From: Candidatus Poribacteria bacterium
Lineage (GTDB): Bacteria; Poribacteria; WGA-4E; WGA-3G
Direction of reading: 5' to 3'
Assembly: GCA_963668035.1 (NCBI GenBank)
Contig: OY764073.1
Location: 565-64,564 of the forward strand
DNA: 64,000 bases
This document shows positions 37,843-49,276 of the stretch, piece after piece. The notes under the pieces were generated by a model that was not told the origin of the DNA, ran no database searches, and worked only from the letters and a program-made list of their open reading frames with translations. Numbering within the stretch: position 1 is the first letter of the stretch; the number at the start of each line of letters is the position of its first letter. The position numbers and the translations under genes are program-made.

Positions 37843-39315
37843 TCACATCCGACTGTGGCCCTCCTGCTTAAATCTCTCCAGCAACCCTGTCAAGCGTTCC
37901 ACAATCTCTGGGTACGTTTCCCATACATTATTCGTCTCACCCGGGTCATCGTAGATATGGTAGAGTTGCCCCGGTGTCCCCGGTTTAGGTGCTCCATCTC
38001 TTGGTGGGGGCCATCCGCCTGAGCCTTGCGTCTCCAGTATTAACTTCCAATCGCCGTGCCGGATAGAAAAAACACCCGTACTGGAGTGGTGCACAATCGC
38101 TTCCCGCAACGGGGTTTCTATGTCTTCACCGACTAACGCTGGCAAAATGTTACAACTGTCCTGTCCTGCGTCGGCTGGCACTTCTGTCCCGACAATCGCT
38201 GCGCAGGTCGCCATCAAATCGGTGAGACAAGTGAGCGCGTCGGTTTCGGTATTCGGTGCGATGACTCCGGGCCAACGCGCAATCAGCGGTTCACGATGTC
38301 CGCCCTCCCAGATATGTGCCTTGTAGCCGCGCCAGTCGCCGCACGATTTATGGTCGTAGAGATGATAGGGCATTGCGCTGCTATCTCCCTGAATCCTGTC
38401 GCCGGGCAAGGCACCGTTATCGCTCGTGACAAAGATCAACGTCTCATCGGTTTTGCCAGTGCGCTCTAATGCATCCATAACTTCACCGACCATCCAATCC
38501 ACAAGCCAGACCAGATCACCACGGGGACCAGCACGACTCTGCCCGCGTGCGAAGTCCGGGACGACCGTTTCTGTGCAAGGTTCATGCGGTGCGGAGGGGG
38601 TCAGATAGAGAAAGAAGGGGGCATCCGCATCGGCTTGACTTTCAATGTATTCGACGGCTTTCTGTGCTATCATCGGATCCGCATCTTTATGTTCCCAGCC
38701 TGGGGTCATCATACCGGGACGGCTCGTAAACTCTGGCACTTCATGATAGACGCTCGGGATGTCGACGAAGGTGTCGTTTTCAATAAAACCATAAGGCGGT
38801 TGACATGTCGGGCAACCGGAGTTTCCGTAAAAATAGTCAAAACCGAGATCAATCGGACCCCCGGTTAGCGGGGCAGTGAAATCTATGTGCTCTTCCAACG
38901 CACGGCCTGCGTTTGCCCAAGGCAGTGGGGCATTGAAATCGAAGTCGTATCCTTGCACCGTCGAAAACCCAAGCCCTAAATGCCATTTGCCGATACATGC
39001 TGTATTATACCCTACATCTTTCAGTAATCCTGCGACTGTCAAGCGTTCGGGTTCTATGAGGGGCGGTTCGTACCCGTAAAGCACACCGTGTTTAAGACGG
39101 CTCCGCCAGCAATAGCGACCTGTTAGCACACCGTATCGTGTCGGTGTACAGACAGCTGAGGGCGAATGTGCATCTGTAAAGCGGATACCCTCTTGCGCGA
39201 GTCTATCCATATTCGGAGTCGGAATCTTGGAGTCCGGGTTATAGCAGCCGACATCACCGTATCCCATATCGTCTGCCATGATAAAGACAATGTTTGGAGA
39301 AGTGTTTGTGTCCAT
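37843..39315 (-). CDS. Arylsulfatase (Cys-type)
   Basis: PNIVFIMADDMGYGD, CTPTRYGVLTG, GKWHLG, SDNG, WEGGHR. Confidence 0.95.
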   Translation of the reverse strand: MDTNTSPNIVFIMADDMGYGDVGCYNPDSKIPTPNMDRLAQEGIRFTDAHSPSAVCTPTRYGVLTGRYCWRSRLKHGVLYGYEPPLIEPERLTVAGLLKDVGYNTACIGKWHLGLGFSTVQGYDFDFNAPLPWANAGRALEEHIDFTAPLTGGPIDLGFDYFYGNSGCPTCQPPYGFIENDTFVDIPSVYHEVPEFTSRPGMMTPGWEHKDADPMIAQKAVEYIESQADADAPFFLYLTPSAPHEPCTETVVPDFARGQSRAGPRGDLVWLVDWMVGEVMDALERTGKTDETLIFVTSDNGALPGDRIQGDSSAMPYHLYDHKSCGDWRGYKAHIWEGGHREPLIARWPGVIAPNTETDALTCLTDLMATCAAIVGTEVPADAGQDSCNILPALVGEDIETPLREAIVHHSSTGVFSIRHGDWKLILETQGSGGWPPPRDGAPKPGTPGQLYHIYDDPGETNNVWETYPEIVERLTGLLERFKQEGHSRM

Positions 39316-39358
39316 TATGATAGCTCCTAAGTGGGGGTATGACGATAAGACATCGCGT

Positions 39359-40474
39359 CTACTCTAATTTCGCCTTTAATTCAGCGAGGTCTTTGTCAAT
39401 GGATGCGTCTTCCGCGTATCCAGCAAATTCACGTTGTAATTTCACATCCTTAAACGCTACGTCCACCTCAGAAGCCGCTTGTGCTAACGCATCAGCTTCG
39501 GTGGCGTTTTGCTCTACTTGCCTCAGGATCTCAAAAGCCTTGCTATCTTGGAGTTCGGTCAACGCTTGGTGCAGATGTTCCTCGGCATCTACATTTGTAT
39601 GCTGTACAATCACTTGATCCCTTTTTCTTTCTGTTTCCTCAGTCTTCTGTTGAAGCGTTTCAAAGAGTGTTGTCAGGTGTGCAACGACCCGTTTCTGCTC
39701 ATCCCATTGGTTTTTGTAGGTGCTGGCGAGTTGTCGGTACTCGTTGCGTTCTGCTAAATCTTCGCGCGCGAGATCTTCACGTCCAGCTTGGAGAGCGATA
39801 ATCGCCCGCTCTTCACAACGTTCCGCCTGCGCAAGTGCTCCCTGATGAGCGTTTTGAAACTGTTTTTCAATGCCGATAGAGGCATCAACCTTCTGCTTCG
39901 CTTCCGAAAACCGATTTGTAATTTCACTAATAACATCCCCTAAAACCTGTTCTAAATCCCTCGTTTTGATACCGACCTTATCTTCGGATTCTGATTCAGA
40001 GACAAATTCCACAGCTTTTGTGTCTAACTGAACCACAATTGTCTTGGCAAGTTTATCCCCCATCCGCCGTCTCTCTTTTCCGCATGCAAATAACCAGTCA
40101 ACCGGTTGGAATATACCGGCAAAACGCCGAACGAAAGCATCTTTAAAGTTCGCAGGTTTCCCATCAGCCAAACGCACGATCTGCAGAGATAACAACCGCT
40201 TTCCAAACCCGCCGCCCCGCTTGAAGCCATCCATAAGAAATAGACCAAATCCCCACAAAATAACAGTGAGGGTCCTAATACTCATTGAGCTTATATCTGA
40301 TGCTTCCCCAAAGCCAATAGTAGCCTCAAGAATTTCACGGAGTTCAAAATTGAGGAAAATTAAAAGGGTTTGAATAAGCCCCAAGAGTCCTACATCCAGT
40401 AAGAACGCGCCGAGTCGGGCCCATCGCGAAGCCAACTTAAACTTTTTTTCTGCAACCTTAATAATGGATGCCAT
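39359..40474 (-). CDS. RDD domain-PspA/IM30 fusion (paralog 4)
   Basis: LASRWARLGAFLLD...GKRLLSLQIV...GDKLAKTIVV, then ERA.IALQAGREDLARE...IDKDLAELKAKL. Confidence 0.85.
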   Translation of the reverse strand: MASIIKVAEKKFKLASRWARLGAFLLDVGLLGLIQTLLIFLNFELREILEATIGFGEASDISSMSIRTLTVILWGFGLFLMDGFKRGGGFGKRLLSLQIVRLADGKPANFKDAFVRRFAGIFQPVDWLFACGKERRRMGDKLAKTIVVQLDTKAVEFVSESESEDKVGIKTRDLEQVLGDVISEITNRFSEAKQKVDASIGIEKQFQNAHQGALAQAERCEERAIIALQAGREDLAREDLAERNEYRQLASTYKNQWDEQKRVVAHLTTLFETLQQKTEETERKRDQVIVQHTNVDAEEHLHQALTELQDSKAFEILRQVEQNATEADALAQAASEVDVAFKDVKLQREFAGYAEDASIDKDLAELKAKLE

Positions 40475-40521
40475 CTGAAATGTCTCCCCTTGAATAAATC
40501 GCCATTCAAAATACCCAATGG

Positions 40522-41700
40522 CTACTCCAGCTTTGACTTTAATTCAGCGAGGTCTTTTTCAATGGATGCGTCTTCTGCGTGTTCAGAAAATTCGCGCTCT
40601 AATTTCGCGTCCTGATAGGCGACATCCACTTCGACGGCGGCTTTCGCCAAATTGGAAGCTTCAGTTGCTTCCTCTTCCATCTTTTTAAGCGTTTCAAACG
40701 CTTTGTTATCCTGAACCTCTGCCAACATCTCGCGCAGATGGGTTTCGGCATCAAGGTTTCTATGTTTCGCGACGACAACCGCTTTTTTCCCTTCTGCCTC
40801 CACCATTTTCTGTTGGAGATGATCAAGCAGGTCTCTAAGTGCGCGAACAATCTGCTGCTGTTCTTCCCATTGTTTTTTGTATTGGGCTGCTAATCGCTGG
40901 TATTCATTGCGTTTTTCCAAATCTTCGCGTGCCAAATCCTCACGTCCTGCTTTCAAAGAGATAACAGCGCGCTCTTGCCATTGTTCTGCTTGAACCGTCG
41001 CGCCTTCATAAGCATCTTGAAACTGTTTTTCGATGCCGATAGAGGCATCAACTTTCTCGCGCGCCTCTGAAAGCCGATGTTGCATCTCAACGATGGCATT
41101 TTCTAAAACAGCTTCCGGGTTTTCAGTTTTAGGCTTGATCGGTTCCGGCTCATGCTTCACATCATCTTTCCCTCCGAGTGTCTGGCGTGCCTCTGAAAAT
41201 AGATTTTTCATCTCAGTGAGGACATTTTCTAAAACATCTTCTGTGTCTTCGGTTTGGGTTGCCATCTGTTCGTTTTGCGGTTTATAGTTTACAACAGCTG
41301 TCTCTGCCAACTTATCTCCGAGGCGTTGCCGTTTTTCACCGAGTAACCAGATTAAGTCAAACGGTTGGAGGATAAGACCCGCGAAACGCCGAACAAAAGA
41401 GTCTTTGTAAGTACATGGTTTTCCATCTTTCAAACGCAGTACTTGTAGGGAAAGCAACCGCTTTCCTATGCCCCGCCCCTTTTGGAAACCATCTATAAAA
41501 AGCAGGCCTACAATAAAAAAGAGGCTGCTCAAAGGTTCAGATAGGAAATAGGAAAACGGGAGTAGTGCCCCTAAGAAACCTCCTACAATTAAGGAGACGA
41601 TACTAATAAGCGTGAAGTCTATGATAAAGGCGTATAGCCTTTTCGATCGGGATCCTAATCTGAGTTTTTTTCCTGCAATTGTGATAGATACCATCCGCAA
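40522..41700 (-). CDS. RDD domain-PspA/IM30 fusion (paralog 3)
   Basis: RLYAFIID...GKRLLSLQV...QRLGDKLAET; ENPEAVLENAIVEM...QWQERA..SLKAGREDLARE. Confidence 0.87.
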   Translation of the reverse strand: MRMVSITIAGKKLRLGSRSKRLYAFIIDFTLISIVSLIVGGFLGALLPFSYFLSEPLSSLFFIVGLLFIDGFQKGRGIGKRLLSLQVLRLKDGKPCTYKDSFVRRFAGLILQPFDLIWLLGEKRQRLGDKLAETAVVNYKPQNEQMATQTEDTEDVLENVLTEMKNLFSEARQTLGGKDDVKHEPEPIKPKTENPEAVLENAIVEMQHRLSEAREKVDASIGIEKQFQDAYEGATVQAEQWQERAVISLKAGREDLAREDLEKRNEYQRLAAQYKKQWEEQQQIVRALRDLLDHLQQKMVEAEGKKAVVVAKHRNLDAETHLREMLAEVQDNKAFETLKKMEEEATEASNLAKAAVEVDVAYQDAKLEREFSEHAEDASIEKDLAELKSKLE

Positions 41701-41723
41701 ACTCCAGAAATCTTTATGAACGT

Positions 41724-42881
41724 TTATGTCTCTAATTTCGCTTTCAATTCAGCGAGGTCTTTGTCAATAGTGGCTTCTTCAGCGTACTGCGCGAATTCTT
41801 CCTCTAATTCCACACTCTGTGATGCAAGGGCTGTCTCTGCCTCCACCTGCGCCAAAGTGATGACTTCAGTGGCATCCAGCTCGACTTGCATCAGCGCGTT
41901 TTCTTGTATCTCTTTGAGTATTTCACGCAGATGCGCTTGGGCATCAACGTTTCTATGTTGTGCCACGGTGCCTACTTTTCTGTCTTCCATCTCTATTACC
42001 TTCTGTTGCAGGTGCGCCAACAGATTATTGAATGCCCCGATGACCTGTTTCTGTGCTTCGCAATGCTGTTTACATTGTTCTGCAAGTTGCTGGTATCCGC
42101 TGCGTTTTCGAAGTTCTTCGCGTGCGGAGTCTTCACGTTGTGCTTGCAAAGCGGTCATTGCGTTGGCATAATACCGGTCTGCTTGTGCAAGCGAACTTTC
42201 GTGGGCGGCTTGAAGTTGTTCTTCAGCTTCAATAGATTCATCGACCTTCTGGCGACCTTCTAAAAGCCAGTCTTTCATCTCACGGATAGCAGCTTCCAGC
42301 ACCTGCTCTGGGTCTTCCGCTTGATTGAGGGCATCAGCGTCCTCACTCTCAATGACTGTTTCTACTGTTTCTACTGTTTTTGTTTGCGGCACGAGTTCCA
42401 CGTCCCGCGCGCGCACCACAACTGTTCCGGCTAGCTTGTCAGCGAGGCGTTGTCGCTCCGGCCAGAAGACACAGAAAATATCTATGGGTTGAAATAATCC
42501 TACCAGTTTGCGAAGCATAGTCTCTTTAAAGGTGAGCCGTCTGCCATCTTTCAGTCGGATCACATGTATTTCCATAAATCCGCTACCGAGTTTGACGAAA
42601 TATGAGCCTACCATCAGGGCTGGCAGCACTATATAAGGTATAAGATACTCAAAGTAATCTTCTATCCCCGGCCCAGACGAGTCAGGAAAGTCCATAAAGA
42701 TATCTAAAATACCGACTATAATGACGACAGGGATCATCAAGATCGCCCCTGCAATTGAGACAATTACCGTAATTATGAAGGCGGCAATAAACAAACATAC
42801 AAGGTCTATGCCGAACGCAGCGAACCGCGCCCATCGCGGTGCGAGTTCAAAATTTCTCTCTGCAATTTTAATATGTTTCAT
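41724..42881 (-). CDS. RDD domain-PspA/IM30 fusion (paralog 2)
   Basis: LAPRWARFAAFGID...QRLADKLAGTVVV; AEDPEQVLEAAIREM...IDKDLAELKAKL. Confidence 0.85.
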   Translation of the reverse strand: MKHIKIAERNFELAPRWARFAAFGIDLVCLFIAAFIITVIVSIAGAILMIPVVIIVGILDIFMDFPDSSGPGIEDYFEYLIPYIVLPALMVGSYFVKLGSGFMEIHVIRLKDGRRLTFKETMLRKLVGLFQPIDIFCVFWPERQRLADKLAGTVVVRARDVELVPQTKTVETVETVIESEDADALNQAEDPEQVLEAAIREMKDWLLEGRQKVDESIEAEEQLQAAHESSLAQADRYYANAMTALQAQREDSAREELRKRSGYQQLAEQCKQHCEAQKQVIGAFNNLLAHLQQKVIEMEDRKVGTVAQHRNVDAQAHLREILKEIQENALMQVELDATEVITLAQVEAETALASQSVELEEEFAQYAEEATIDKDLAELKAKLET

Positions 42882-42962
42882 CTTGAAAGCCCCTCAGTAT
42901 GGATGAACGCTGGTGTGAAACGGCGCGAGAGTCGTGTCAAAGCTGGGATATCCCTATCGCGC

Positions 42963-45602
42963 CTACTGTAGTTTCGCCTTTAGTTCAGCAAGTTCTTTAT
43001 CAATTGTGGCCTCCTCGGCATTTCCCGCAAATTCACGTTCTAATTCTGCGTCCTGATATGCGGTATCCATTTCAGCCGCTGCTTTTTCTAAAGCGGATTC
43101 TTTGGTCACGCGCTGCTCCGTTTCCACGAACGTTTCAAAGGGTTCGCTCTCCTCTATCTCTGCAAGCATCTTACGGAGATGTGTTTGGGCATTCGTGTTC
43201 TTGTGTTGTGCAACGATGACGGCTTTTTTGACTTGTGCCTCCATCATTTTCCGCTGAAGATATTCAAGCGTATTTTTAAAGGATTGCACGACCTGTTTCT
43301 GTTCTTCATACTGCTTTTCGTAGCCGTCTGCCAGTCGGCGGTGTTTGTTCCGTTTTTGCAGTGCTTCGCGTGCGGTGTTTTCATCTTCTGCTTGTAGGGC
43401 AGCGACTGCACTCGCTTGAGCCTGCTCTGCTTGTGCCACCGCGTCTTCATAGGAGATTTGGAACTGTTTTTCCGCTTCGATAGACGCGTCAACCTGCTCG
43501 CGCGCTTTTGACAGCCTGCTTTTCATCTCAAGAATAGCAACCCCTAACACCTCTTCTGGCTCCCCAATGGGGCTGTTCTCTGCCTCAAGGTCTACGATAA
43601 CGACTTCCTGCTCGGATTTCACGACGGCTGTTCCGGCGAGTTTGTCGCCGAGCCGTTGCCGCTTTTTTCCAAGGCTCGGAATAAGATCCAAAGGTGCAAG
43701 GACACTTGCGATTCGCCGCAGAAAAGCGTCTTTAAAGCCGCCCGGTCTGCCATTTTTTAATCGGACGACCTGTATGGACATCGCGCGCTTACCAGGGCCG
43801 CATCCGTTGAATCCATCCATAAAAAATAACCCGAATATCCATAATCCAAGATTAATAGATTGAACAGTCCTGAAAGGAAGCAAAGCAATCTCAGGATTCG
43901 GATAGGCAATTAAAGTAACAAAAAAGGTAATATAAAGTAAGCAGCTTACGTCTATCAAAAATGCGGACAGCCGCAGCTTTAGCGGTGCTAATTCAAACTC
44001 TTGTCTTGCAATTCTAATAGACGGTTCTGTCTCTGGCACAACTTCCGCTACAGTGGTTGCTACGACGACCGTTCCTGCGAGTTTATCCCCGATCCGTTGC
44101 CATTTTGGCCCAAAGGTTGAGATCAGATCGAAAGGTTGAAGCACGATTGTGAGTCTACGCAGAAAGGCATTTTTGAGATTACAAGGGTTGCCATCTTTCA
44201 ATCGGAGTACCTGAATCCCTATCATTGCTTTGCCGGGGCTGCGTCCGCTGAATCCATCGAGAAAGAGTAGCCCGAGTATCCATAAACTGACAGTTGCAGT
44301 ATAAAAGACGATAGGCACTATGCCGAACATAGGAAGTATGTCGTTTGTTTCTATTATAGCAGGATCAACTGTAGAAGGGTTAGAATAGTAGATGGCACGT
44401 TCACGCGCAAAATAATACGCGGATACAGCAAATGCCAGCAAGCGTAAAATCACGGTGGCGGAGATTAAGAGCAGTACATCCGTGGAAAAAGCGAAAAACC
44501 GTGCCAAGCGATCCGCCAACGCAAACTCTTTTCCGCCGATTCTGATAGATTGTGCGGATGAGCGTGCTGTCCACTTTGTCAATTCGGGATCTTTTCCCGC
44601 CATTTCGAGGACCTCTTCTGGAGTCCTCCGCAGAGGCTTCGCGGCAGTTGCCGGGTCAAATTTCACGACGATCGTTCCGGCTAACCGATCGCCGATGCGT
44701 TGCCCTTTTGGGTGAAGTATACAGATAATAACATCGAAGGGTTGAAGCACGATTGTGAGTCTGCGCCAAAAGGCGCTTTTGAGATTACACGGTGTACCAT
44801 CTTTCAATCGGATCACCCGGAGTTTCATCAGTGCTTTGCCGGGACTGCGGCCGTTGAACCCATCAAGAAAGAGGAGTCCAAATATCCATAAACCGATGCT
44901 TATGGCATAAACGACGGTATGGATTATGTTGACCGTGTACTCTATAGTGTCTTTTTCTATGATAACCCCAGGATCAACATAGTAACTACGATCAATATAA
45001 GAGCTGTATACCTCAAGGGCCAGCCAGAGTAAGATCATCGGGATGAAAACTAAGGGCAGCACATCTATGAAAAAAGCGAAAAGGCGTGCGAACCGATCCC
45101 CCAATTCGAAATCTCTGCCTACGATCTTAATAGACATTTCCGGGGCCGGCGATCCAAATTTCGTATAATGTTCATGGATAAGACTGAATTTGACGATGAC
45201 CGTTTTGACGAGCTGATCTCCCAAGCGTTGCCGTTTTTCGCTGAACATCCAGATGAGATCCAGGGGGAGAAGGATCATTGTGAGTCGGCGAAAAAAAGCA
45301 TCTGTAAAATTGCTCGGTCTGCCATCTTTCAATCGGAGTACCCGGATATCCATTAGGTCTTTGCCGGGGCTGCGTCCGCTGAAGCCTTCCATAAAAGTCA
45401 GCCCGAATAGCCATAACAGAAGGCTGGCGATCTGAAAAAGTTTTGGGTGCCACGTCCTGATCCCAAGCCAGCCTAAAACCCAGTATAAAATCAAGGTGGC
45501 GACAGATAAGATCAGTGCATCTATGAAAAACGCCCAGAACCGTCGGCTTAGGGAAGCTAATTGAAAATTTCTGCCTGCAATTTTGATACTAACAGTTTTC
45601 AT
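42963..45602 (-). CDS. Four tandem RDD domains fused to PspA/IM30 (paralog 1)
   Basis: Four repeats of F.LA...R..AF.ID...GRSPGK...QR.GD.LAGT.VV, followed by EPEEVL..AILEM...IDKELAELKAKL. Confidence 0.87.
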   Translation of the reverse strand: MKTVSIKIAGRNFQLASLSRRFWAFFIDALILSVATLILYWVLGWLGIRTWHPKLFQIASLLLWLFGLTFMEGFSGRSPGKDLMDIRVLRLKDGRPSNFTDAFFRRLTMILLPLDLIWMFSEKRQRLGDQLVKTVIVKFSLIHEHYTKFGSPAPEMSIKIVGRDFELGDRFARLFAFFIDVLPLVFIPMILLWLALEVYSSYIDRSYYVDPGVIIEKDTIEYTVNIIHTVVYAISIGLWIFGLLFLDGFNGRSPGKALMKLRVIRLKDGTPCNLKSAFWRRLTIVLQPFDVIICILHPKGQRIGDRLAGTIVVKFDPATAAKPLRRTPEEVLEMAGKDPELTKWTARSSAQSIRIGGKEFALADRLARFFAFSTDVLLLISATVILRLLAFAVSAYYFARERAIYYSNPSTVDPAIIETNDILPMFGIVPIVFYTATVSLWILGLLFLDGFSGRSPGKAMIGIQVLRLKDGNPCNLKNAFLRRLTIVLQPFDLISTFGPKWQRIGDKLAGTVVVATTVAEVVPETEPSIRIARQEFELAPLKLRLSAFLIDVSCLLYITFFVTLIAYPNPEIALLPFRTVQSINLGLWIFGLFFMDGFNGCGPGKRAMSIQVVRLKNGRPGGFKDAFLRRIASVLAPLDLIPSLGKKRQRLGDKLAGTAVVKSEQEVVIVDLEAENSPIGEPEEVLGVAILEMKSRLSKAREQVDASIEAEKQFQISYEDAVAQAEQAQASAVAALQAEDENTAREALQKRNKHRRLADGYEKQYEEQKQVVQSFKNTLEYLQRKMMEAQVKKAVIVAQHKNTNAQTHLRKMLAEIEESEPFETFVETEQRVTKESALEKAAAEMDTAYQDAELEREFAGNAEEATIDKELAELKAKLQ

Positions 45603-45715
45603 CGTGAAAACCCCTGTCTGTCCTCAGGATATATTATATAGAGTCTGCAGCGCCAAAAAGGATAGTCCAATTTTTTTATCTACAACCTAAAACTTTGACA
45701 GGCTGTAGATGACAT

Positions 45716-46321
45716 TTATGCCTTCTGTTCGACCATACTTGAGAGAATACCCAGAATCTTATCGCATTGTGTGATTGTGTAGATCGCCATGTCAATATGC
45801 AGCCGGTGTCCTTCTAATTTGAGGAATTGCCATTCTGTTCCTGTCGTGCTGGCACCATAAACAGAAGCTATATTGTTCTGCTTCTCGTGATTAAAGCGTT
45901 GTGCAGCGAACATCTCGGCAACACATTGACCTAATCCAAGTTTAGGTTCAGCTTTCTTTGCCTCAACAAGTGCGATAACCGGTGCCTCTAGGAAAAATTG
46001 TTCCGGTGATAAACTTATCAAAAAATCGCATACACCAACTAAGCCGTTTTCGGCATCAACGCTGAATTCAATCCCTGAAAAGAAACTGATACGGCGATCG
46101 AAGTGCTCACGGAGTTCGAAGAGAACATTCGCGACAATCAGTTCTGATCGTGCTTTTTCTGTCCCTATCGCAACAGCTAATGGAACTTTTTTACGCAACT
46201 CGGCTGTGAAGTGCGGACTCGGCGTTACCACCTCTATTTCAGAAAAGAGGTCTATGGACTCAACTGTTTCCAATTCAAATGCTGCCCGCACGGATTCTAA
46301 AGTAAAATTGCTGTAAGCCAT
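45716..46321 (-). CDS. Conserved hypothetical protein, PD-(D/E)XK-like
   Basis: MAYSNFTL, TEKARSE, GVCDFLI, VEAKK, GQCVAEM.AAQ.FN, YGA.TTG.EWQFLKL. Confidence 0.7.
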   Translation of the reverse strand: MAYSNFTLESVRAAFELETVESIDLFSEIEVVTPSPHFTAELRKKVPLAVAIGTEKARSELIVANVLFELREHFDRRISFFSGIEFSVDAENGLVGVCDFLISLSPEQFFLEAPVIALVEAKKAEPKLGLGQCVAEMFAAQRFNHEKQNNIASVYGASTTGTEWQFLKLEGHRLHIDMAIYTITQCDKILGILSSMVEQKA

Positions 46322-46370
46322 TTATAGACCTCGTAAGTATGATAGCCCCTTTGTCCACAAAGTCCACAAA

Positions 46371-47429
46371 TCATAAGCTCGGTACTGTGACAGCGACTTC
46401 GCGTCCACCCGCATTTGAAGAATCGATAACGCCTTGGATGATAACGTTGGTAAGCATCACGCCGTACGGATCGATCGGTGAGGGTTTACCTTCACGAACA
46501 GCGTCAATGAACGCCGAATCTTCTTCGTGGAATACGCTCACGGATTCAAACTCGGTGAACTCTTGGTCAAAAATCTCGCCATCTTTATCGCCATAGACGC
46601 GTACGCCTTCTTGTGGTCCCCGGACTTCGCCGATACCGAGCCGTAACCCCGCTTTTTTGCCGAGAAAGATCGTTCCACCGAGTGAATCCATGTTCATGCA
46701 CCAACACGTCTTGAAGACCATACGCGCCCCGTTCTCAAAAACCACCCAACCGACACCGAAATCTTCTACCTCCGTCTCTCTAAGCGCAGGATTCCATGTA
46801 TTGTGCAGACTCAAATAGTTGGAGGTGATACCGGAGACCGCAACGGGTTTCGGGTGTCCCATCAGATAGAGAGCTGTGTCAAGTGCATAGACGCCGATAT
46901 CCGCGGACGCGCCTAAACCCGCAGTCGCTTTTCGGATAAAACTGCCGCCCGGGTTCCCGCGCCGCCGGTCTGCGACGGTTTCAACATAGTAAATGTCGCC
47001 GAGCGTGCCAGCGTCAACGATTTCTTTCGCCTTAATCACTTGTGGTGAATACCGGAGTTTCAAACCGATCATCAAAATTTTGTCGTTCTCTTTTGCGGCG
47101 CGCCACATTGAAGCGGCAGCGTCCAACGTCGCTTCCATCGGTTTCTCACAAAAAACGTGTTTACCGGCGTTCAGCGCAGCGACCGTAGGGGCTGCATGTA
47201 CACCTGTAGGCGTACAGACGTAGACCGCCTCGATTTCGTCCATTTTGAGCATTTCGTTGTAATCGGTGAACGTGCGTTTGATGCCCCATTGCTCTTTCGC
47301 GCGTTCCAAATTTGCGGGGGCGATGTCGGCAGCAGCGATAATCTCGGCACCTTCAATATCCGTAAGCGTTCGACAGTGTGCCCCTGAAATGCCCCCTGCA
47401 CCAATCAAACCTAATTTAACTGTTCTCAT
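46371..47429 (-). CDS. Gfo/Idh/MocA family oxidoreductase
   Basis: GLIGAGGI, VCTP, GKHVFCEKP. Confidence 0.92.
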   Translation of the reverse strand: MRTVKLGLIGAGGISGAHCRTLTDIEGAEIIAAADIAPANLERAKEQWGIKRTFTDYNEMLKMDEIEAVYVCTPTGVHAAPTVAALNAGKHVFCEKPMEATLDAAASMWRAAKENDKILMIGLKLRYSPQVIKAKEIVDAGTLGDIYYVETVADRRRGNPGGSFIRKATAGLGASADIGVYALDTALYLMGHPKPVAVSGITSNYLSLHNTWNPALRETEVEDFGVGWVVFENGARMVFKTCWCMNMDSLGGTIFLGKKAGLRLGIGEVRGPQEGVRVYGDKDGEIFDQEFTEFESVSVFHEEDSAFIDAVREGKPSPIDPYGVMLTNVIIQGVIDSSNAGGREVAVTVPSL

Positions 47430-47533
47430 TTACATCTCCCTGTTACGTATTGTATGCTTTTCATTCTAATGTATTTTGGCTTAGAAGTCAAGAAAATTTT
47501 TATCGTGGACGGAAATGAACCCGAAATTGCCGT

Positions 47534-47562
47534 TTGACACAATTCGTCGGCTGTGCTATATT
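47534..47562 (+). promoter_or_regulatory. Putative sigma70 promoter
   Basis: TTGACA-17 bp-TATATT with an extended -10 TG. Confidence 0.6.
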
Positions 47563-47595
47563 GCAAATAGACTACAAACTTTTGAGGAGACTGTT

Positions 47596-48627
47596 GTGAA
47601 AGCTGCACAATTTTATGGCGGAAAAGATATAAGAGTCGAAACGGTCCCCAACCCTACGCCTGAAGCAGGACAAGTCTTGGTTCAAGTAGAGGCATCGGGG
47701 ATCTGTGGCAGTGATCTGCACGGGTATCATCACCCACCCGATAAGCCCCTATCGCCGCGCATCGGCGGACACGAATTAGCAGGACTCGTTATGGATACGG
47801 GTAAAGATGTTACAGGGTATAACAGAGGCGCGCGCGTGGCGGTTGAACCGATTAGTCCCTGCAACAATTGTCCGGAATGCTATAACGGTTACTATAATAT
47901 CTGCGGAAATTTACGACACGGTGGCGGCGGCTTCGCAGAATTTATGGTCGCACGCACAGCAAACGTGTATCCGTTGCCGGAGAGCGTCTCTGCTGAAGGG
48001 GGCGCGTTGGCGGAGGTCTATGCGGTCGCGGTGCATGCTGTCAACAGAGCGATGGTGTCGCCTGGGGATCGCGTTGCCATTATCGGAAGTGGTCCCGTGG
48101 GATTGACAATCGCGCAGGTCGCGGATGTCGCCGGCGCAACTGCTATCGCCATGCTCGGGAAGCCTGACGGACCGATACAGATTGCCCATGAAGCCGTGGG
48201 AGCAGTGCCTATCAATGTGGATAAAACAGACGCTGTGGCGGCTATCATGGAGTGGAGCGATGGACGCGGCGCGGATGTCGTCTTTGAGGCAGTCGGCGGC
48301 ACCGCGAATACACTGGAACAGGCGACGGAGATCGCAGCGAAACGCGGACGCGTCTGTATGGTCGGTGGACATCGGACACCGCTCACCTTTTCGGAACGGT
48401 TCGCACGGAGCAGAGAACTGACAGTCATTTGGTCGTTCTGTTACGGGAGACGTGGCGGGAAAACCGAGTTCCAAGTCGCTATTGATCTACTCGCCGCTGG
48501 CAAGCTGGATCCGAACCCACTCGTCACGCACCGGTTCGACTTAGACGATATTAACGAGGCGTTCGCTGTCGCCGCAGGGCGCGATGAACACGGGTCTGTC
48601 AAAGTGCTCGTGATGCCTAACAATTAA
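47596..48627 (+). CDS. Zinc-dependent medium-chain dehydrogenase (threonine/sorbitol dehydrogenase-like)
   Basis: GICGSDLH, GHE, CNNCPEC...C, G.GPVGL; GAGGAG RBS before GTG. Confidence 0.92.
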   Translation: MKAAQFYGGKDIRVETVPNPTPEAGQVLVQVEASGICGSDLHGYHHPPDKPLSPRIGGHELAGLVMDTGKDVTGYNRGARVAVEPISPCNNCPECYNGYYNICGNLRHGGGGFAEFMVARTANVYPLPESVSAEGGALAEVYAVAVHAVNRAMVSPGDRVAIIGSGPVGLTIAQVADVAGATAIAMLGKPDGPIQIAHEAVGAVPINVDKTDAVAAIMEWSDGRGADVVFEAVGGTANTLEQATEIAAKRGRVCMVGGHRTPLTFSERFARSRELTVIWSFCYGRRGGKTEFQVAIDLLAAGKLDPNPLVTHRFDLDDINEAFAVAAGRDEHGSVKVLVMPNN

Positions 48628-48637
48628 AGGAGACGAA

Positions 48638-49276
48638 ATGAAAACGCTTAAATCGCTTGTATTTGTCGGGACAGAAGGCATCTATCACGATCATGCAGGG
48701 AACGGACAATTTCTCACATCACTGCTTAACGACACTGATACCATTGAAGCCGATTTCTCACAAGACTACGATGTGCTTGCGGATGGGCTTGAAGGGTATA
48801 ACACTGTGCTTTTCTACACGGATGTCGGGGAACTCACGGCAGCACAAGAGACAGGCTTACTCGACTATATCCGGACAGGCGGAGGGTTCTTCGGGCTACA
48901 TACCGCTGCCGCTTCGTTCAGGGAAGCTGAAGGTTACCACGGCATGCTCAACGGATTTTTCAACGGGCACAGTCCGTATATGGACTTCACCGTTAATGTC
49001 AGCGACTCTAATCACCCGATTACCGAAGGGTTGTCTGATTTTGAGGCGACAGATGAACTCTATTATCTGAAGCATAACCCCGATGCATCGCACCATCTGA
49101 TGCACGCCTATGATGAGACGAAAGATGAAACCCACGTCATGGCATTTCACCATACGTACGGGGACGGGAGAGTCTTCTACTTCGCACTCGGTCACGATAT
49201 GGCAGTGCTTGAAAATTCGAGTTTTCAGACGGTTATCCGCCGCGGTGCCTTATGGGTAGGACACGGAACCCCGTAG
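48638..49276 (+). CDS. ThuA-like (class I glutamine amidotransferase-like) domain protein
   Basis: GGGFFGLH, HPITEGL, DELY, YGDGRVFYFALGHD. Confidence 0.9.
   Translation: MKTLKSLVFVGTEGIYHDHAGNGQFLTSLLNDTDTIEADFSQDYDVLADGLEGYNTVLFYTDVGELTAAQETGLLDYIRTGGGFFGLHTAAASFREAEGYHGMLNGFFNGHSPYMDFTVNVSDSNHPITEGLSDFEATDELYYLKHNPDASHHLMHAYDETKDETHVMAFHHTYGDGRVFYFALGHDMAVLENSSFQTVIRRGALWVGHGTP

What the first reader, a model, noticed from the sequence alone, without database searches (positions are those of the whole stretch)
39359..45602. Four-gene array of RDD-PspA/IM30 fusions: membrane-integral bacterial ESCRT-III-like proteins
Seen: four tandem co-oriented genes, each with RDD transmembrane domain(s) joined to a PspA-like region that starts at the (E)DPE..L...I.EM motif and ends in I(D/E)K(D/E)LAELK.KL. 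Known: PspA/Vipp1 are ESCRT-III homologues that polymerise and bind membranes through an N-terminal amphipathic helix, normally as soluble proteins recruited by separate membrane partners. Here that helix is replaced by an integral membrane domain. Inference: a covalently anchored, possibly hetero-polymeric membrane remodelling or repair system; I know of no description of this fusion array.
Basis: partly seen in the sequence, partly recalled or inferred. Interest (0 to 1): 0.87.

Follow-up and report, generated by a model that had tools for sequence, protein, structure and literature searches.

The report
Membrane-anchored PspA genes in Poribacteria
Four neighbouring genes of a sponge-symbiont (Poribacteria) genome each join an integral-membrane RDD module to a PspA/Vipp1-type membrane-repair protein that has lost its usual membrane-binding helix, a lineage-specific and apparently undescribed way of fixing such a protein permanently to the membrane.

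Summary
Four co-oriented minus-strand genes (371, 392, 385 and 879 aa) all pass Pfam's cut-offs for RDD and PspA_IM30; the 879-aa protein has four RDD units. The PspA match starts at profile position 20-23 (9 in one), so helix alpha0, the usual membrane anchor, is missing. An AlphaFold model gives helices alpha1-alpha5, and Foldseek ranks 1-17 are all Vipp1/PspA. Charge patterns and the tandem RDD units place the PspA domain in the cytoplasm on a short acidic tether.

The fusion is confined to one Poribacteria family: 104 of 111 genomes, against plain alpha0-bearing PspAs in five sampled genomes of five other families. It arose once from the resident PspA (one clade, support 100). Arrays hold 1-4 genes, so four is not the conserved unit. 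PspB and PspC were not found in this genome.

The most likely reading is a permanently tethered PspA that maintains the membrane. Polymerisation, co-assembly of paralogues and expression are untested. I found no description in print. It is a new variant of a known kind, of moderate to high interest.

The parts
39359..40474 (-). Gene 4 of the array (P1, 371 aa): RDD module residues 3-149 (40028-40468), acidic tether, PspA alpha1-alpha5 residues 173-371 (39362-39958)
   Evidence: ORF; Pfam RDD 47.8 bits and PspA_IM30 67 bits; domain limits; AlphaFold model; orthologues are the last gene of arrays elsewhere (SH-aLRT 98)
40522..41700 (-). Gene 3 (P2, 392 aa; perhaps 390): RDD residues 3-139 (41284-41694); long linker with a partial duplicate of the first 24 residues of alpha1 (residues 151-174, 41179-41250); PspA residues 193-392 (40525-41124)
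   Evidence: family HMM gives a second PspA stretch at residues 151-174 matching HMM positions 1-24, iE 4.4e-6
41724..42881 (-). Gene 2 (P3, 385 aa): RDD residues 1-157 (42411-42881), PspA residues 189-384 (41730-42317); the most divergent paralogue
   Evidence: end branch 0.72 in the tree
42963..45602 (-). Gene 1 (P4, 879 aa): four tandem RDD units (residues 5-139, 157-315, 351-515, 528-662 = 45186-45590, 44658-45134, 44058-44552, 43617-44021) followed by one PspA domain (residues 681-879 = 42966-43562)
   Evidence: Pfam RDD 194.1 bits in 4 stretches; family HMM gives 4 RDD domains of iE 1e-41 to 1e-43; units are 40-53% identical to each other; only two other full-length clusters (879 aa at 97%, 878 aa at 70%) among 4 proteins at E<=1e-10
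45603..45715 (-). 113-bp A+T-rich spacer upstream of gene 1; possible promoter region of the array
   Evidence: Sequence printed. The consensus scan found no more promoter-like sites in 38800-46400 than in shuffles (13 against 9.4 +/- 3.0) and none inside this spacer; role inferred only

Best explanation
These are membrane-integral PspA proteins. In one family of Candidatus Poribacteria the resident PspA gene lost its N-terminal amphipathic helix alpha0 and gained an RDD membrane module in its place. This happened once, and the gene was then duplicated in tandem. Each RDD unit most likely crosses the membrane twice (N-terminus in), followed by a short re-entrant or interfacial hydrophobic segment and small cytoplasmic strands. 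That leaves the PspA domain (alpha1-alpha5, the ESCRT-III-like fold) in the cytoplasm, held at the inner face of the cytoplasmic membrane by an acidic tether of about 10-24 residues. Inferred mechanism: the tethered PspA domains assemble through the conserved hairpin/alpha5 surfaces into PspA-type polymers on the membrane, with the RDD doing the job of alpha0 and of the separate membrane partners (PspB/PspC, LiaI) of classical systems. They act as this lineage's main PspA for stabilising or reshaping the cytoplasmic membrane. Because the RDD signature residues stay invariant, the RDD probably also keeps its own, still unknown, ligand- or ion-binding activity and may decide where or when assembly occurs. 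Shown: architecture, fold, loss of alpha0, single origin, lineage restriction. Inferred: topology (strong), polymerisation, membrane maintenance, co-assembly of paralogues.
For: Architecture: both Pfam families pass their cut-offs in 4 of 4 proteins. Fold: the model has helices 172-229, 233-291, 297-309, 312-344 and 347-370 after a disordered stretch 152-172. Foldseek ranks 1-17 are all Vipp1/PspA, with 9eom at E 6.3e-5, and the hairpin-only chains 6zvs_A at TMt 0.79 and 4whe at TMt 0.75. Alpha0 is lost: the Pfam match starts at profile position 20-23, or 9 in P3; canonical PspAs align their residues 20-220 to query residues 169-370; sister-family PspAs have alpha0 (MGIFDR..FK.N.NA.LDK) directly before AEDPEK. 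Alpha0 is the membrane anchor of Vipp1/PspA (annotated reference in the review PMC7619361, passages). Topology: over 40 family members the mean net charge is +6.1 for the N-terminus, -0.2 for the TM1-TM2 loop, +6.4 after TM2 and +2.3 after the short hydrophobic segment. The same pattern holds in all 7 RDD units of the window, and the four units of P4 are joined without an extra hydrophobic span, which requires an even number of crossings per unit. Tether: 10-24 residues (median 12) and net negative in 154 of 156 distinct fusion ORFs. Conserved surfaces: the alpha1/alpha2 hairpin and the alpha5 block (D360 K361 D362 L363 A364 E365 L366 K367 K369) are invariant or nearly so in 40 sequences; the hairpin-H5 interface is the conserved polymer contact (PMC7619361 passage). 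The RDD signature is kept: R20 and D27 are invariant, and D82, P124, D126 and R137 nearly so, in 35 RDD units; D140 is invariant in A2. Single origin from the resident PspA: 47 of 47 fusion PspA domains form one clade (SH-aLRT 100), next to stand-alone PspAs of other Poribacteria families (support 93). Replacement: in 41 sampled genomes of the family, the 71 best matches to a sister-family PspA (36-45% identity) all start at query residue 15-26, and 67 of them lie in frames of 352 aa or more; stand-alone PspAs there are only 24-34% identical. No PspC and no PspB in this 96%-complete single-contig genome. An independent analogue exists: a PspC membrane domain fused to an alpha0-less PspA (P0241, PspA profile from position 20).
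Against: Nothing shows that these proteins polymerise or act on membranes. The stem of the fusion clade is long (1.16 changes per column). The fusion PspA domains are more acidic (mean net charge -13.6, n=153) than the 13 stand-alone Poribacteria PspA rows compared (+3 to -11). Both fit changed constraints, possibly a changed function. NCBIfam's PspA and LiaH equivalog models score far below cut-off (54-64 bits against 242.95). 7 of 111 genomes of the family have no match at E<=1e-20, among them two single-contig genomes, so the fusion is dispensable. 17 of 76 loci have a single gene, so co-assembly of paralogues is not required. The third hydrophobic segment is 7 residues shorter than in this genome's stand-alone RDD (20-21 against 27 residues between the flanking basic residues), so canonical RDD topology may differ. 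My topology rests on charge bias and repeat logic, not on coordinates or experiment. No conserved partner gene gives a functional hint: the flanks are sulfatase, PhyH and oxidoreductase genes. The genome also keeps two divergent stand-alone PspA-like genes that might carry the classical function.
Confidence: 0.6

Rival explanations
1. The RDD module is the working part (an ion transporter or a ligand-binding membrane device), and the attached PspA domain is its regulator or sensor. For instance it could report membrane stress or proton leakage to the RDD, or gate it, without building a membrane-shaping coat.
For: The RDD signature residues are invariant or nearly so across the fusions, so the RDD is under its own selection and is more than a passive anchor. 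One RDD protein was reported to act as a Na+(Li+,K+)/H+ antiporter (PMC5996927, abstract). Another analysis infers a conserved intramembrane binding site facing the cytoplasm (PMC12419801, passage). Four RDD units with a single PspA domain in P4 fit a membrane device with one regulatory tail.
Against: The whole alpha1-alpha5 PspA domain, including the alpha5 block, is conserved, which is more than a regulatory tail would need. The fusion took the place of the lineage's canonical PspA. The RDD-only model found no transporter-like relative above background: best Z 8.9, to a peroxisomal ubiquitin-ligase membrane subunit, then generic helical hairpins. This absence is not evidence. The antiporter claim rests on a single study, of which I saw only the abstract.
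Confidence: 0.2
2. The PspA-derived domain has lost ESCRT-III-like assembly and now serves as a long coiled-coil spacer or scaffold on the cytoplasmic face, for example to recruit other proteins. The family would then be neofunctionalised.
For: Long stem branch of the fusion clade (1.16); higher acidity than stand-alone relatives; modest Pfam scores (44.6-84.9 bits) against 144-183 bits for ordinary PspAs in the same scan type.
Against: All five helices and the C-terminal alpha5 motif typical of PspA/Vipp1 are retained and strongly conserved. A mere spacer would not need alpha5.
Confidence: 0.12
3. The PspA domain faces the periplasm, with each RDD unit crossing the membrane three times.
For: Stand-alone RDD proteins have a longer third hydrophobic segment that could span the membrane (27 residues in this genome's stand-alone copy).
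Against: Both flanks of the short third segment are positively charged (+6.4 and +2.3 on average). Four RDD units in tandem would alternate in orientation, yet all keep the same charge pattern. PspA-family proteins act on the cytoplasmic face (established knowledge of the family).
Confidence: 0.03

Closest known systems
PspA / Vipp1 (IM30) / LiaH, the bacterial ESCRT-III-like family (Pfam PF04012)
   Same: Profile match above cut-off over positions about 20-217 of 220; five-helix fold with the alpha1/alpha2 hairpin; Foldseek ranks 1-17; canonical AEDPE-type start of alpha1 and canonical alpha5 motif.
   Different: No helix alpha0; an integral-membrane RDD module and an acidic tether precede alpha1; far below NCBIfam's equivalog cut-offs for PspA and LiaH; more acidic; encoded in tandem arrays of 1-4.
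Classical two-part arrangements: PspA with PspB/PspC (E. coli) and LiaH with LiaI (B. subtilis)
   Same: [quoted passage not shown] I propose the same logic here.
   Different: Here anchor and effector are one polypeptide, so recruitment cannot be switched by binding and release. PspB and PspC families were not found in this genome. No PspF-type regulator context was seen next to the array.
PspC-PspA fusion (representative P0241, 274 aa, unnamed source)
   Same: A membrane domain (PspC, residues 3-59) directly precedes a PspA domain that starts at profile position 20, so alpha0 is replaced by a membrane module.
   Different: A different membrane domain, and one already known as a PspA partner. 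I did not examine its spread or whether it is described in print.
Snf7 (ESCRT-III) fused to an RND-family transporter in some Actinobacteria
   Same: [quoted passage not shown]
   Different: A different branch of the superfamily (Snf7, not PspA), a different membrane partner (12-TM RND transporter) and a different phylum. That paper's text lists NlpC/P60 and PspAA as the PspA fusions and has no occurrence of 'RDD'.
RDD family proteins (Pfam PF06271), including VanZ-RDD fusions and the Halobacillus andaensis RDD protein
   Same: Profile match above cut-off with the arginine and aspartates of the signature conserved.
   Different: The third hydrophobic segment is shorter than in the stand-alone copy of this genome. 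The fusion partner is PspA, not VanZ or a kinase (PMC12419801 passage). Up to four RDD units occur in one chain.

Membership tests
PspA/IM30 family (PF04012) | Match to the family profile above the curated cut-off | tested here: met
   67, 84.9, 44.6 and 70.8 bits against a cut-off of 33.9, covering profile positions about 20-217 of 220
PspA/IM30 family (PF04012) | ESCRT-III-like fold: alpha1/alpha2-3 hairpin followed by alpha4 and alpha5 | tested here: met
   Model helices 172-229, 233-291, 297-309, 312-344, 347-370; Foldseek ranks 1-17 all Vipp1/PspA, probability 1.00; hairpin chains TMt 0.75-0.79
PspA/IM30 family (PF04012) | N-terminal amphipathic helix alpha0 that binds the membrane | tested here: not met
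   Profile positions 1-19 are unmatched in 3 of 4 proteins and 1-8 in P3. Residues 152-172 before alpha1 are disordered with pLDDT below 50. Canonical PspAs align only from their residue 20-21.
PspA/IM30 family (PF04012) | Self-assembly into rings, rods or carpets | not testable with these tools
   Needs purified protein and electron microscopy. The interface residues are conserved, but that is indirect.
PspA or LiaH orthologue in NCBI's sense (TIGR02977, NF007974, NF045984 equivalogs) | Score above the equivalog cut-off | tested here: not met
   Best 54.3-64.2 bits against 242.95 for TIGR02977; 17.8-47.9 against 380 for LiaH
RDD family (PF06271) | Match to the family profile above the curated cut-off | tested here: met
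   47.8, 51.5, 35.0 and 194.1 bits (4 stretches) against a cut-off of 24.1; 7 of the genome's 8 RDD matches lie in this array
RDD family (PF06271) | Conserved arginine before the first membrane helix, aspartate within it, and a later aspartate | tested here: met
   R20 and D27 are invariant in 35 RDD units; D140 is invariant and D82 nearly so in 40 family members. Assigning these residues to the 'R-D-D' of the family name is from my recall of the Pfam description.
RDD family (PF06271) | Number of membrane crossings and topology | tested here: inconclusive
   Two clear hydrophobic helices plus a short third segment. Charge bias and tandem repeats favour N-in/C-in. No coordinates or experiment.
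Classical Psp system (PspA with PspB, PspC, PspF) | PspB and PspC membrane partners encoded in the genome | tested here: not met
   PF04024 and PF06667: 0 matches in the 96%-complete single-contig genome, while the controls ring in 7 and 1 of 14 genomes. PspF was not searched.

The most novel reading that the evidence does not exclude
The fusion is a Rosetta stone: RDD domains in general are membrane receptors or nucleation sites for PspA/ESCRT-III-like polymers. In Poribacteria the tandem paralogues (including the 4xRDD form) would co-assemble into a permanently anchored, hetero-polymeric lattice that shapes or partitions the cytoplasmic membrane. That would make it a bacterial ESCRT-III-like coat that never leaves the membrane. 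It would give the enigmatic RDD family a function, and give a phylum long suspected of cell compartmentation a membrane-shaping machine.
Probability: 0.12. Interest if true: 0.85.

Novelty: new variant of a known kind. Interest (0 to 1): 0.6.

Why it matters
PspA, Vipp1 and the ESCRT-III proteins are thought to work by cycling between a soluble pool and the membrane, with helix alpha0 as a reversible membrane anchor. This is a natural lineage in which that anchor was swapped for an integral membrane domain, the result replaced the ordinary PspA, and it was kept and multiplied across more than 100 species-level genomes. It is a ready-made test of whether reversible binding is needed for function. 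It also shows how a tethered protomer can still enter a polymer. And it gives a first functional context for the widespread but unexplained RDD domain. For sponge-symbiont biology it marks a conserved, family-specific membrane trait of unknown role.

Tried and rejected
Complex prediction: the PspA domains of P1 (residues 172-371) and P2 (192-392), each with a 40-row alignment, scored 0.00 and 0.00. The tool's verdict was 'no answer', so it counts neither for nor against binding.

Expression: no RNA holder is listed for 39359-45602. Three runs held as contigs, of unknown kind, hold 0.94, 0.81 and 0.21 of the sampled words. I did not lay reads, because contigs cannot show expression.

Promoter and terminator scan of 38800-46400: 13 promoter-like sites against 9.4 +/- 3.0 in shuffles, and 6 terminator-like sites against 8.3 +/- 2.7. 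Nothing beyond chance, so operon structure is inferred from spacing and orientation only.

RDD fold: the RDD-only model (pLDDT 75.8, pTM 0.57) was aligned to 48,161 PDB representatives. Best was 7t92_B (peroxisomal ubiquitin-ligase retro-translocon subunit), Z 8.9, rmsd 3.3, 128 of 150 residues. The next rows (Z 8.0 and below) are generic helical hairpins. This lies within the background the tool describes for helical models, so I draw no conclusion. No cation/proton antiporter appeared among the 50 rows, which is not evidence of absence.

Origin of the fusion from adjacent genes: no RDD match within the 1.5-kb flanks of 10 stand-alone PspA loci of sister families. In G044 and G022 the RDD matches lie far from the PspA matches. 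So I found no support for an ancestral RDD-PspA neighbourhood or for a general RDD-PspA gene linkage; only two genomes were looked at.

Link to Poribacteria 'compartmentation': the two papers on it contain no occurrence of PspA or phage shock (PMC5087111 and PMC3909097, term search and passages). They attribute compartmentation to protein microcompartments and describe granules that are not membrane-bound. I keep this only as part of the speculative novel case.

LemA preprint (10.64898/2026.10.21.759321, passages): LemA proteins interact with PspA but are not PspA fusions, so it is not a precedent.

Literature searches for a prior description: (RDD + PspA: 108 papers, 20 listed, none on this subject by title; 'RDD' has other meanings there). 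('phage shock protein' + 'RDD domain': 2 papers, 1 listed, the Lipocone paper, which cites the PSP survey only in its references); the two PSP comparative-genomics papers have 0 occurrences of 'RDD' and of 'Poribacteria' in their main text; the 2025 ESCRT-III review has 0 occurrences of RDD, 'fused' and 'transmembrane'; 34 papers, 12 listed. (Poribacteria + phage shock: 3 papers, none on this by title); 85 papers hold at least 2 of 5 terms, and all 15 listed have 0 occurrences of 'RDD'. Supplementary tables and the web app of PMC11237479, which list the under-2% unusual PspA architectures, could not be seen and may include this fusion. InterPro could not be queried.

Full report
WHAT IS THERE. 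The stated interval holds four co-oriented minus-strand ORFs: 42963-45602 (879 aa, first in transcription order), 41724-42881 (385 aa), 40522-41700 (392 aa) and 39359-40474 (371 aa). I call them P4, P3, P2 and P1. They are separated by 81, 23 and 47 bp. All four pass Pfam's curated cut-offs for both RDD (PF06271) and PspA_IM30 (PF04012), and P4 has four RDD stretches. The paralogues are 43-54% identical, and P4's four RDD units are 40-53% identical to each other, so the duplications are old.

THE PspA PART. The Pfam match covers profile positions 20-23 to 217 of 220 (9 to 217 in P3). NCBIfam's PspA and LiaH equivalog models match the same stretch but far below cut-off. An AlphaFold2 model of P1 built on 40 family members (pLDDT 72.6) shows a disordered stretch at 152-172 followed by helices 172-229, 233-291, 297-309, 312-344 and 347-370. 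Foldseek against the PDB returns Vipp1 and PspA chains at ranks 1-17. The full-length chains have high rmsd, as expected for a flexible protomer. The hairpin-only chains fit well (6zvs_A TMt 0.79, E. coli PspA 1-144 TMt 0.75).

In a search of 1.84 billion representatives, scores break sharply. 25 proteins reach E<=1e-30 and are the fusion family and its fragments. Ordinary PspAs then follow from about 1e-19, and they align their residues 20-220 to query residues 169-370. Stand-alone PspAs of other Poribacteria families begin MGIFDR..FK.N.NA.LDKAEDPEK, that is alpha0 followed by the start of alpha1. The fusions keep the (E/D)PE..L motif and everything after it, and lack alpha0. Alpha0 is the membrane-anchoring helix of Vipp1 and PspA (annotated reference in PMC7619361, passage; title of PMC12358876, listing).

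THE RDD PART AND TOPOLOGY. Hydropathy gives two strong hydrophobic helices per unit and a weak third segment. Both models agree on the layout: an N-terminal beta-hairpin (4-14), helices 17-53 and 55/59-80/82, then short helices and strands, with a helix-break-helix at 110-131 around a conserved proline.

Over 40 family members the mean net charge is +6.1 for the N-terminus, -0.2 for the loop between the two helices, +6.4 after the second helix and +2.3 after the short third segment. The linker to PspA is -5.5. All seven RDD units of the window show this pattern. By the positive-inside rule (established knowledge) this gives N-in, two crossings, a re-entrant or interfacial third segment, and C-in. 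The tandem units of P4 are joined without any extra hydrophobic span, so they require an even number of crossings per unit; otherwise alternate units would be inverted.

I could not inspect coordinates, so I did not verify that the short strands form one cytoplasmic sheet. One caveat: this genome's only stand-alone RDD gene has a third segment 7 residues longer, so canonical RDD proteins may differ.

The RDD signature residues are conserved. R20 and D27 are invariant, and D82, P124, D126 and R137 nearly so, in 35 units. D140 is invariant in 40 members. The RDD-only model has no convincing solved relative (best Z 8.9, within background).

THE TETHER. In 156 distinct fusion ORFs from 76 related loci, the stretch between the end of the RDD profile and the start of the PspA profile is 10-24 residues (median 12), and it is net negative in 154. 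By the domain limits, the window's P1 has 23 residues there, P4 18 and P3 31. P2 has 53, because it carries a partial duplicate of the first 24 residues of alpha1 (iE 4.4e-6).

WHERE IT OCCURS. The best 120 of 667 database hits to P2 all carry both Pfam families. Six have a source name: three name Candidatus Poribacteria and three read 'phage shock protein A'. A pattern-based scan of one genome per species gave 76 loci, of which 74 are titled Poribacteria and 2 'uncultured bacterium'. The patterns were family-specific, so this alone does not show restriction. The ESM Atlas has one cluster with both families on 100% of its 115 members, commonest taxon Candidatus Poribacteria; among 30 hits it is the only one with this family set.

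Across 176 genomes of the phylum, family f1 has a match in 104 of 111, with best E-values of 1e-44 or lower. Matches in other families are around 1e-21 to 1e-35. In five sampled genomes from five other families, those matches cover only query residues 169-370, in frames of 221-259 aa. They are plain PspAs with alpha0. The most divergent fusion-like representative, P0144, has a 56%-identical full-length match in a genome of the window's own genus. I therefore found the architecture only in one family of Poribacteria. This is a finding about the collections searched, not proof of absence elsewhere. Seven f1 genomes had no match, two of them single-contig assemblies.

HOW IT AROSE. A maximum-likelihood tree of 66 PspA domains was built from 47 fusion domains (the window's four plus 20 of the 76 loci, chosen by me to span the identity range), 11 stand-alone Poribacteria PspAs and 8 outside representatives. 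It puts all 47 fusion domains on one side of a branch with SH-aLRT 100 and length 1.16. That clade lies inside a group (support 93) with stand-alone PspAs of sister families. P1 has clear orthologues, always the last gene of an array (support 98). P3 and P4 sit on long branches.

In 41 sampled f1 genomes, the 71 best matches to a sister-family PspA (36-45% identity) all begin at query residue 15-26. 67 of them lie in frames of at least 352 aa, and the remaining four lie in shorter frames (211-288 aa). The stand-alone PspAs of these genomes are only 24-34% identical. So the fusion is the f1 orthologue of the phylum's ordinary PspA, formed once, then duplicated and in places lost.

Array size among the 76 loci is one gene in 17, two in 40, three in 17 and four in 2. 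Some loci are cut by contig ends, so these are lower bounds. The 4xRDD form is rare: of 4 proteins at E<=1e-10, two are full-length (879 aa at 97% and 878 aa at 70% identity). Representatives of 504-716 aa with two or three matched stretches also exist.

CONTEXT. Homologues of the flanking sulfatase, oxidoreductase and PhyH genes lie within the flanks of 72, 71 and 65 of 76 loci. The neighbourhood is syntenic, but it contains no known Psp partner. These are large gene families in Poribacteria, so some of these hits may be paralogues. The genome has no PspC or PspB match. Seven of its eight RDD matches lie in this array. Two further, divergent stand-alone PspA-like genes lie elsewhere.

MECHANISM. 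Shown: an intact PspA alpha1-alpha5 domain without alpha0, covalently joined to one or four RDD membrane units, and conserved as the lineage's version of its ordinary PspA. Strongly inferred: the PspA domain is cytoplasmic and held within a few nanometres of the membrane. Inferred: it still assembles through the conserved hairpin/alpha5 contact. That contact is the best-conserved part of the family and is the conserved polymer interface in Vipp1 (PMC7619361 passage). In PspA and Vipp1 assemblies alpha0 precedes alpha1 and faces the bound membrane, so replacing it with a transmembrane anchor on a short tether keeps the same geometry. The proteins would then coat or stabilise the inner face of the cytoplasmic membrane without a soluble pool and without a separate recruiter. 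A PspC-PspA fusion with the same alpha0-less junction (P0241) and the Snf7-RND fusion reported in Actinobacteria (PMC11237479 passage) show that evolution has joined such effectors to membrane proteins before.

The invariant RDD polar residues argue that the RDD is more than an anchor. What it binds is unknown. Published views differ: a cation/proton antiporter in one halophile (PMC5996927, abstract), and an intramembrane binding site facing the cytoplasm (PMC12419801, passage). The long stem branch and the higher acidity of the fusion PspA domains warn that function may have shifted. I put 0.6 on the tethered-PspA reading, 0.2 on an RDD device regulated by PspA, 0.12 on a non-assembling scaffold and 0.03 on a periplasmic orientation.

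NOVELTY. The searches listed under Tried and rejected found no paper that describes an RDD-PspA fusion. The most complete survey states that more than 98% of PspA homologues have the PspA_IM30 domain alone, and names only tandem repeats, NlpC/P60 and PspAA among the rest (PMC11237479 passage). Its supplements could not be opened. The proteins are present in public databases under automatic names. I rate this a new variant of a known kind. It is real, lineage-defining and mechanistically suggestive, but it is built from known parts along a logic (membrane partner plus PspA) that is already familiar.

LIMITS. There are no expression data, and the complex prediction gave no verdict.

Noticed in passing
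window 41179-41250 (minus strand; P2 residues 151-174): P2's linker holds a partial duplicate of the first 24 residues of helix alpha1 (family HMM positions 1-24, iE 4.4e-6), upstream of the complete PspA domain. It makes P2's tether about 53 residues, against a family range of 10-24.
   Followed up: partly
window 44607-44630 (minus strand; P4 residues 325-332): Between RDD units 2 and 3 of the 879-aa protein lies PEEVLEMA, which resembles the start of alpha1 (PEEVLGVAILEM in the same protein). It may be a remnant showing that the multi-RDD gene arose by collapse of neighbouring RDD-PspA genes. It is too short for the HMM to score; seen by eye only.
   Followed up: partly
window 45716-46321 (-) and 37166-37828 (-): Two ORFs of 201 and 220 aa flanking the array have no Pfam family at E<=0.001. 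Homologues occur within the flanks of only 6 and 9 of 76 related loci, unlike the other neighbours. They look like local insertions of unknown function.
   Followed up: no
L004 1432-2136 (+) and 2133-2873 (+) (own genome, about 4.87 Mb): A divergent stand-alone PspA-like gene (234 aa, PF04012 55.4 bits) overlaps by 4 bp the start of a gene whose product carries a Walker-A-like GPNGAGKTT motif, probably an ABC ATPase. This may be a separate PspA-ABC transporter unit.
   Followed up: no
L006 1375-2250 (-) (own genome, about 2.40 Mb): A second PspA-like gene (291 aa, 33.4 bits, just under the 33.9 cut-off) has an alpha0-like N-terminus and a long acidic C-terminal tail.
   Followed up: no
proteins P0241, P0156, P0267 (representative library, unnamed sources): Other N-terminal fusions to PspA turned up among the hits: PspC+PspA (alpha0-less), CesT_Tir_1+PspA, and an adenylate-kinase-like region+PspA. 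None was pursued.
   Followed up: no
genomes G069, G096, G102 (family f1): These near-complete genomes of the fusion-bearing family (two of them single contigs) gave no fusion match, suggesting secondary loss. G174 carries an extra, divergent copy about 330 kb away from its array.
   Followed up: partly
RDD-only model m4caaff0dd7ff: The only PDB representative aligning over nearly the whole RDD model (128 of 150 residues, Z 8.9, rmsd 3.3) is a membrane subunit of the peroxisomal ubiquitin-ligase retro-translocon (7t92_B). This is within background for helical models, but it is the one full-length match.
   Followed up: no
window 34659-39315 and 46371-49276: The array is embedded in sulfatase, PhyH-like dioxygenase, GFO/IDH/MocA oxidoreductase, zinc alcohol dehydrogenase and ThuA-like genes, a carbohydrate- and sulfate-ester-degrading neighbourhood. 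No tRNA gene lies in the whole window.
   Followed up: no
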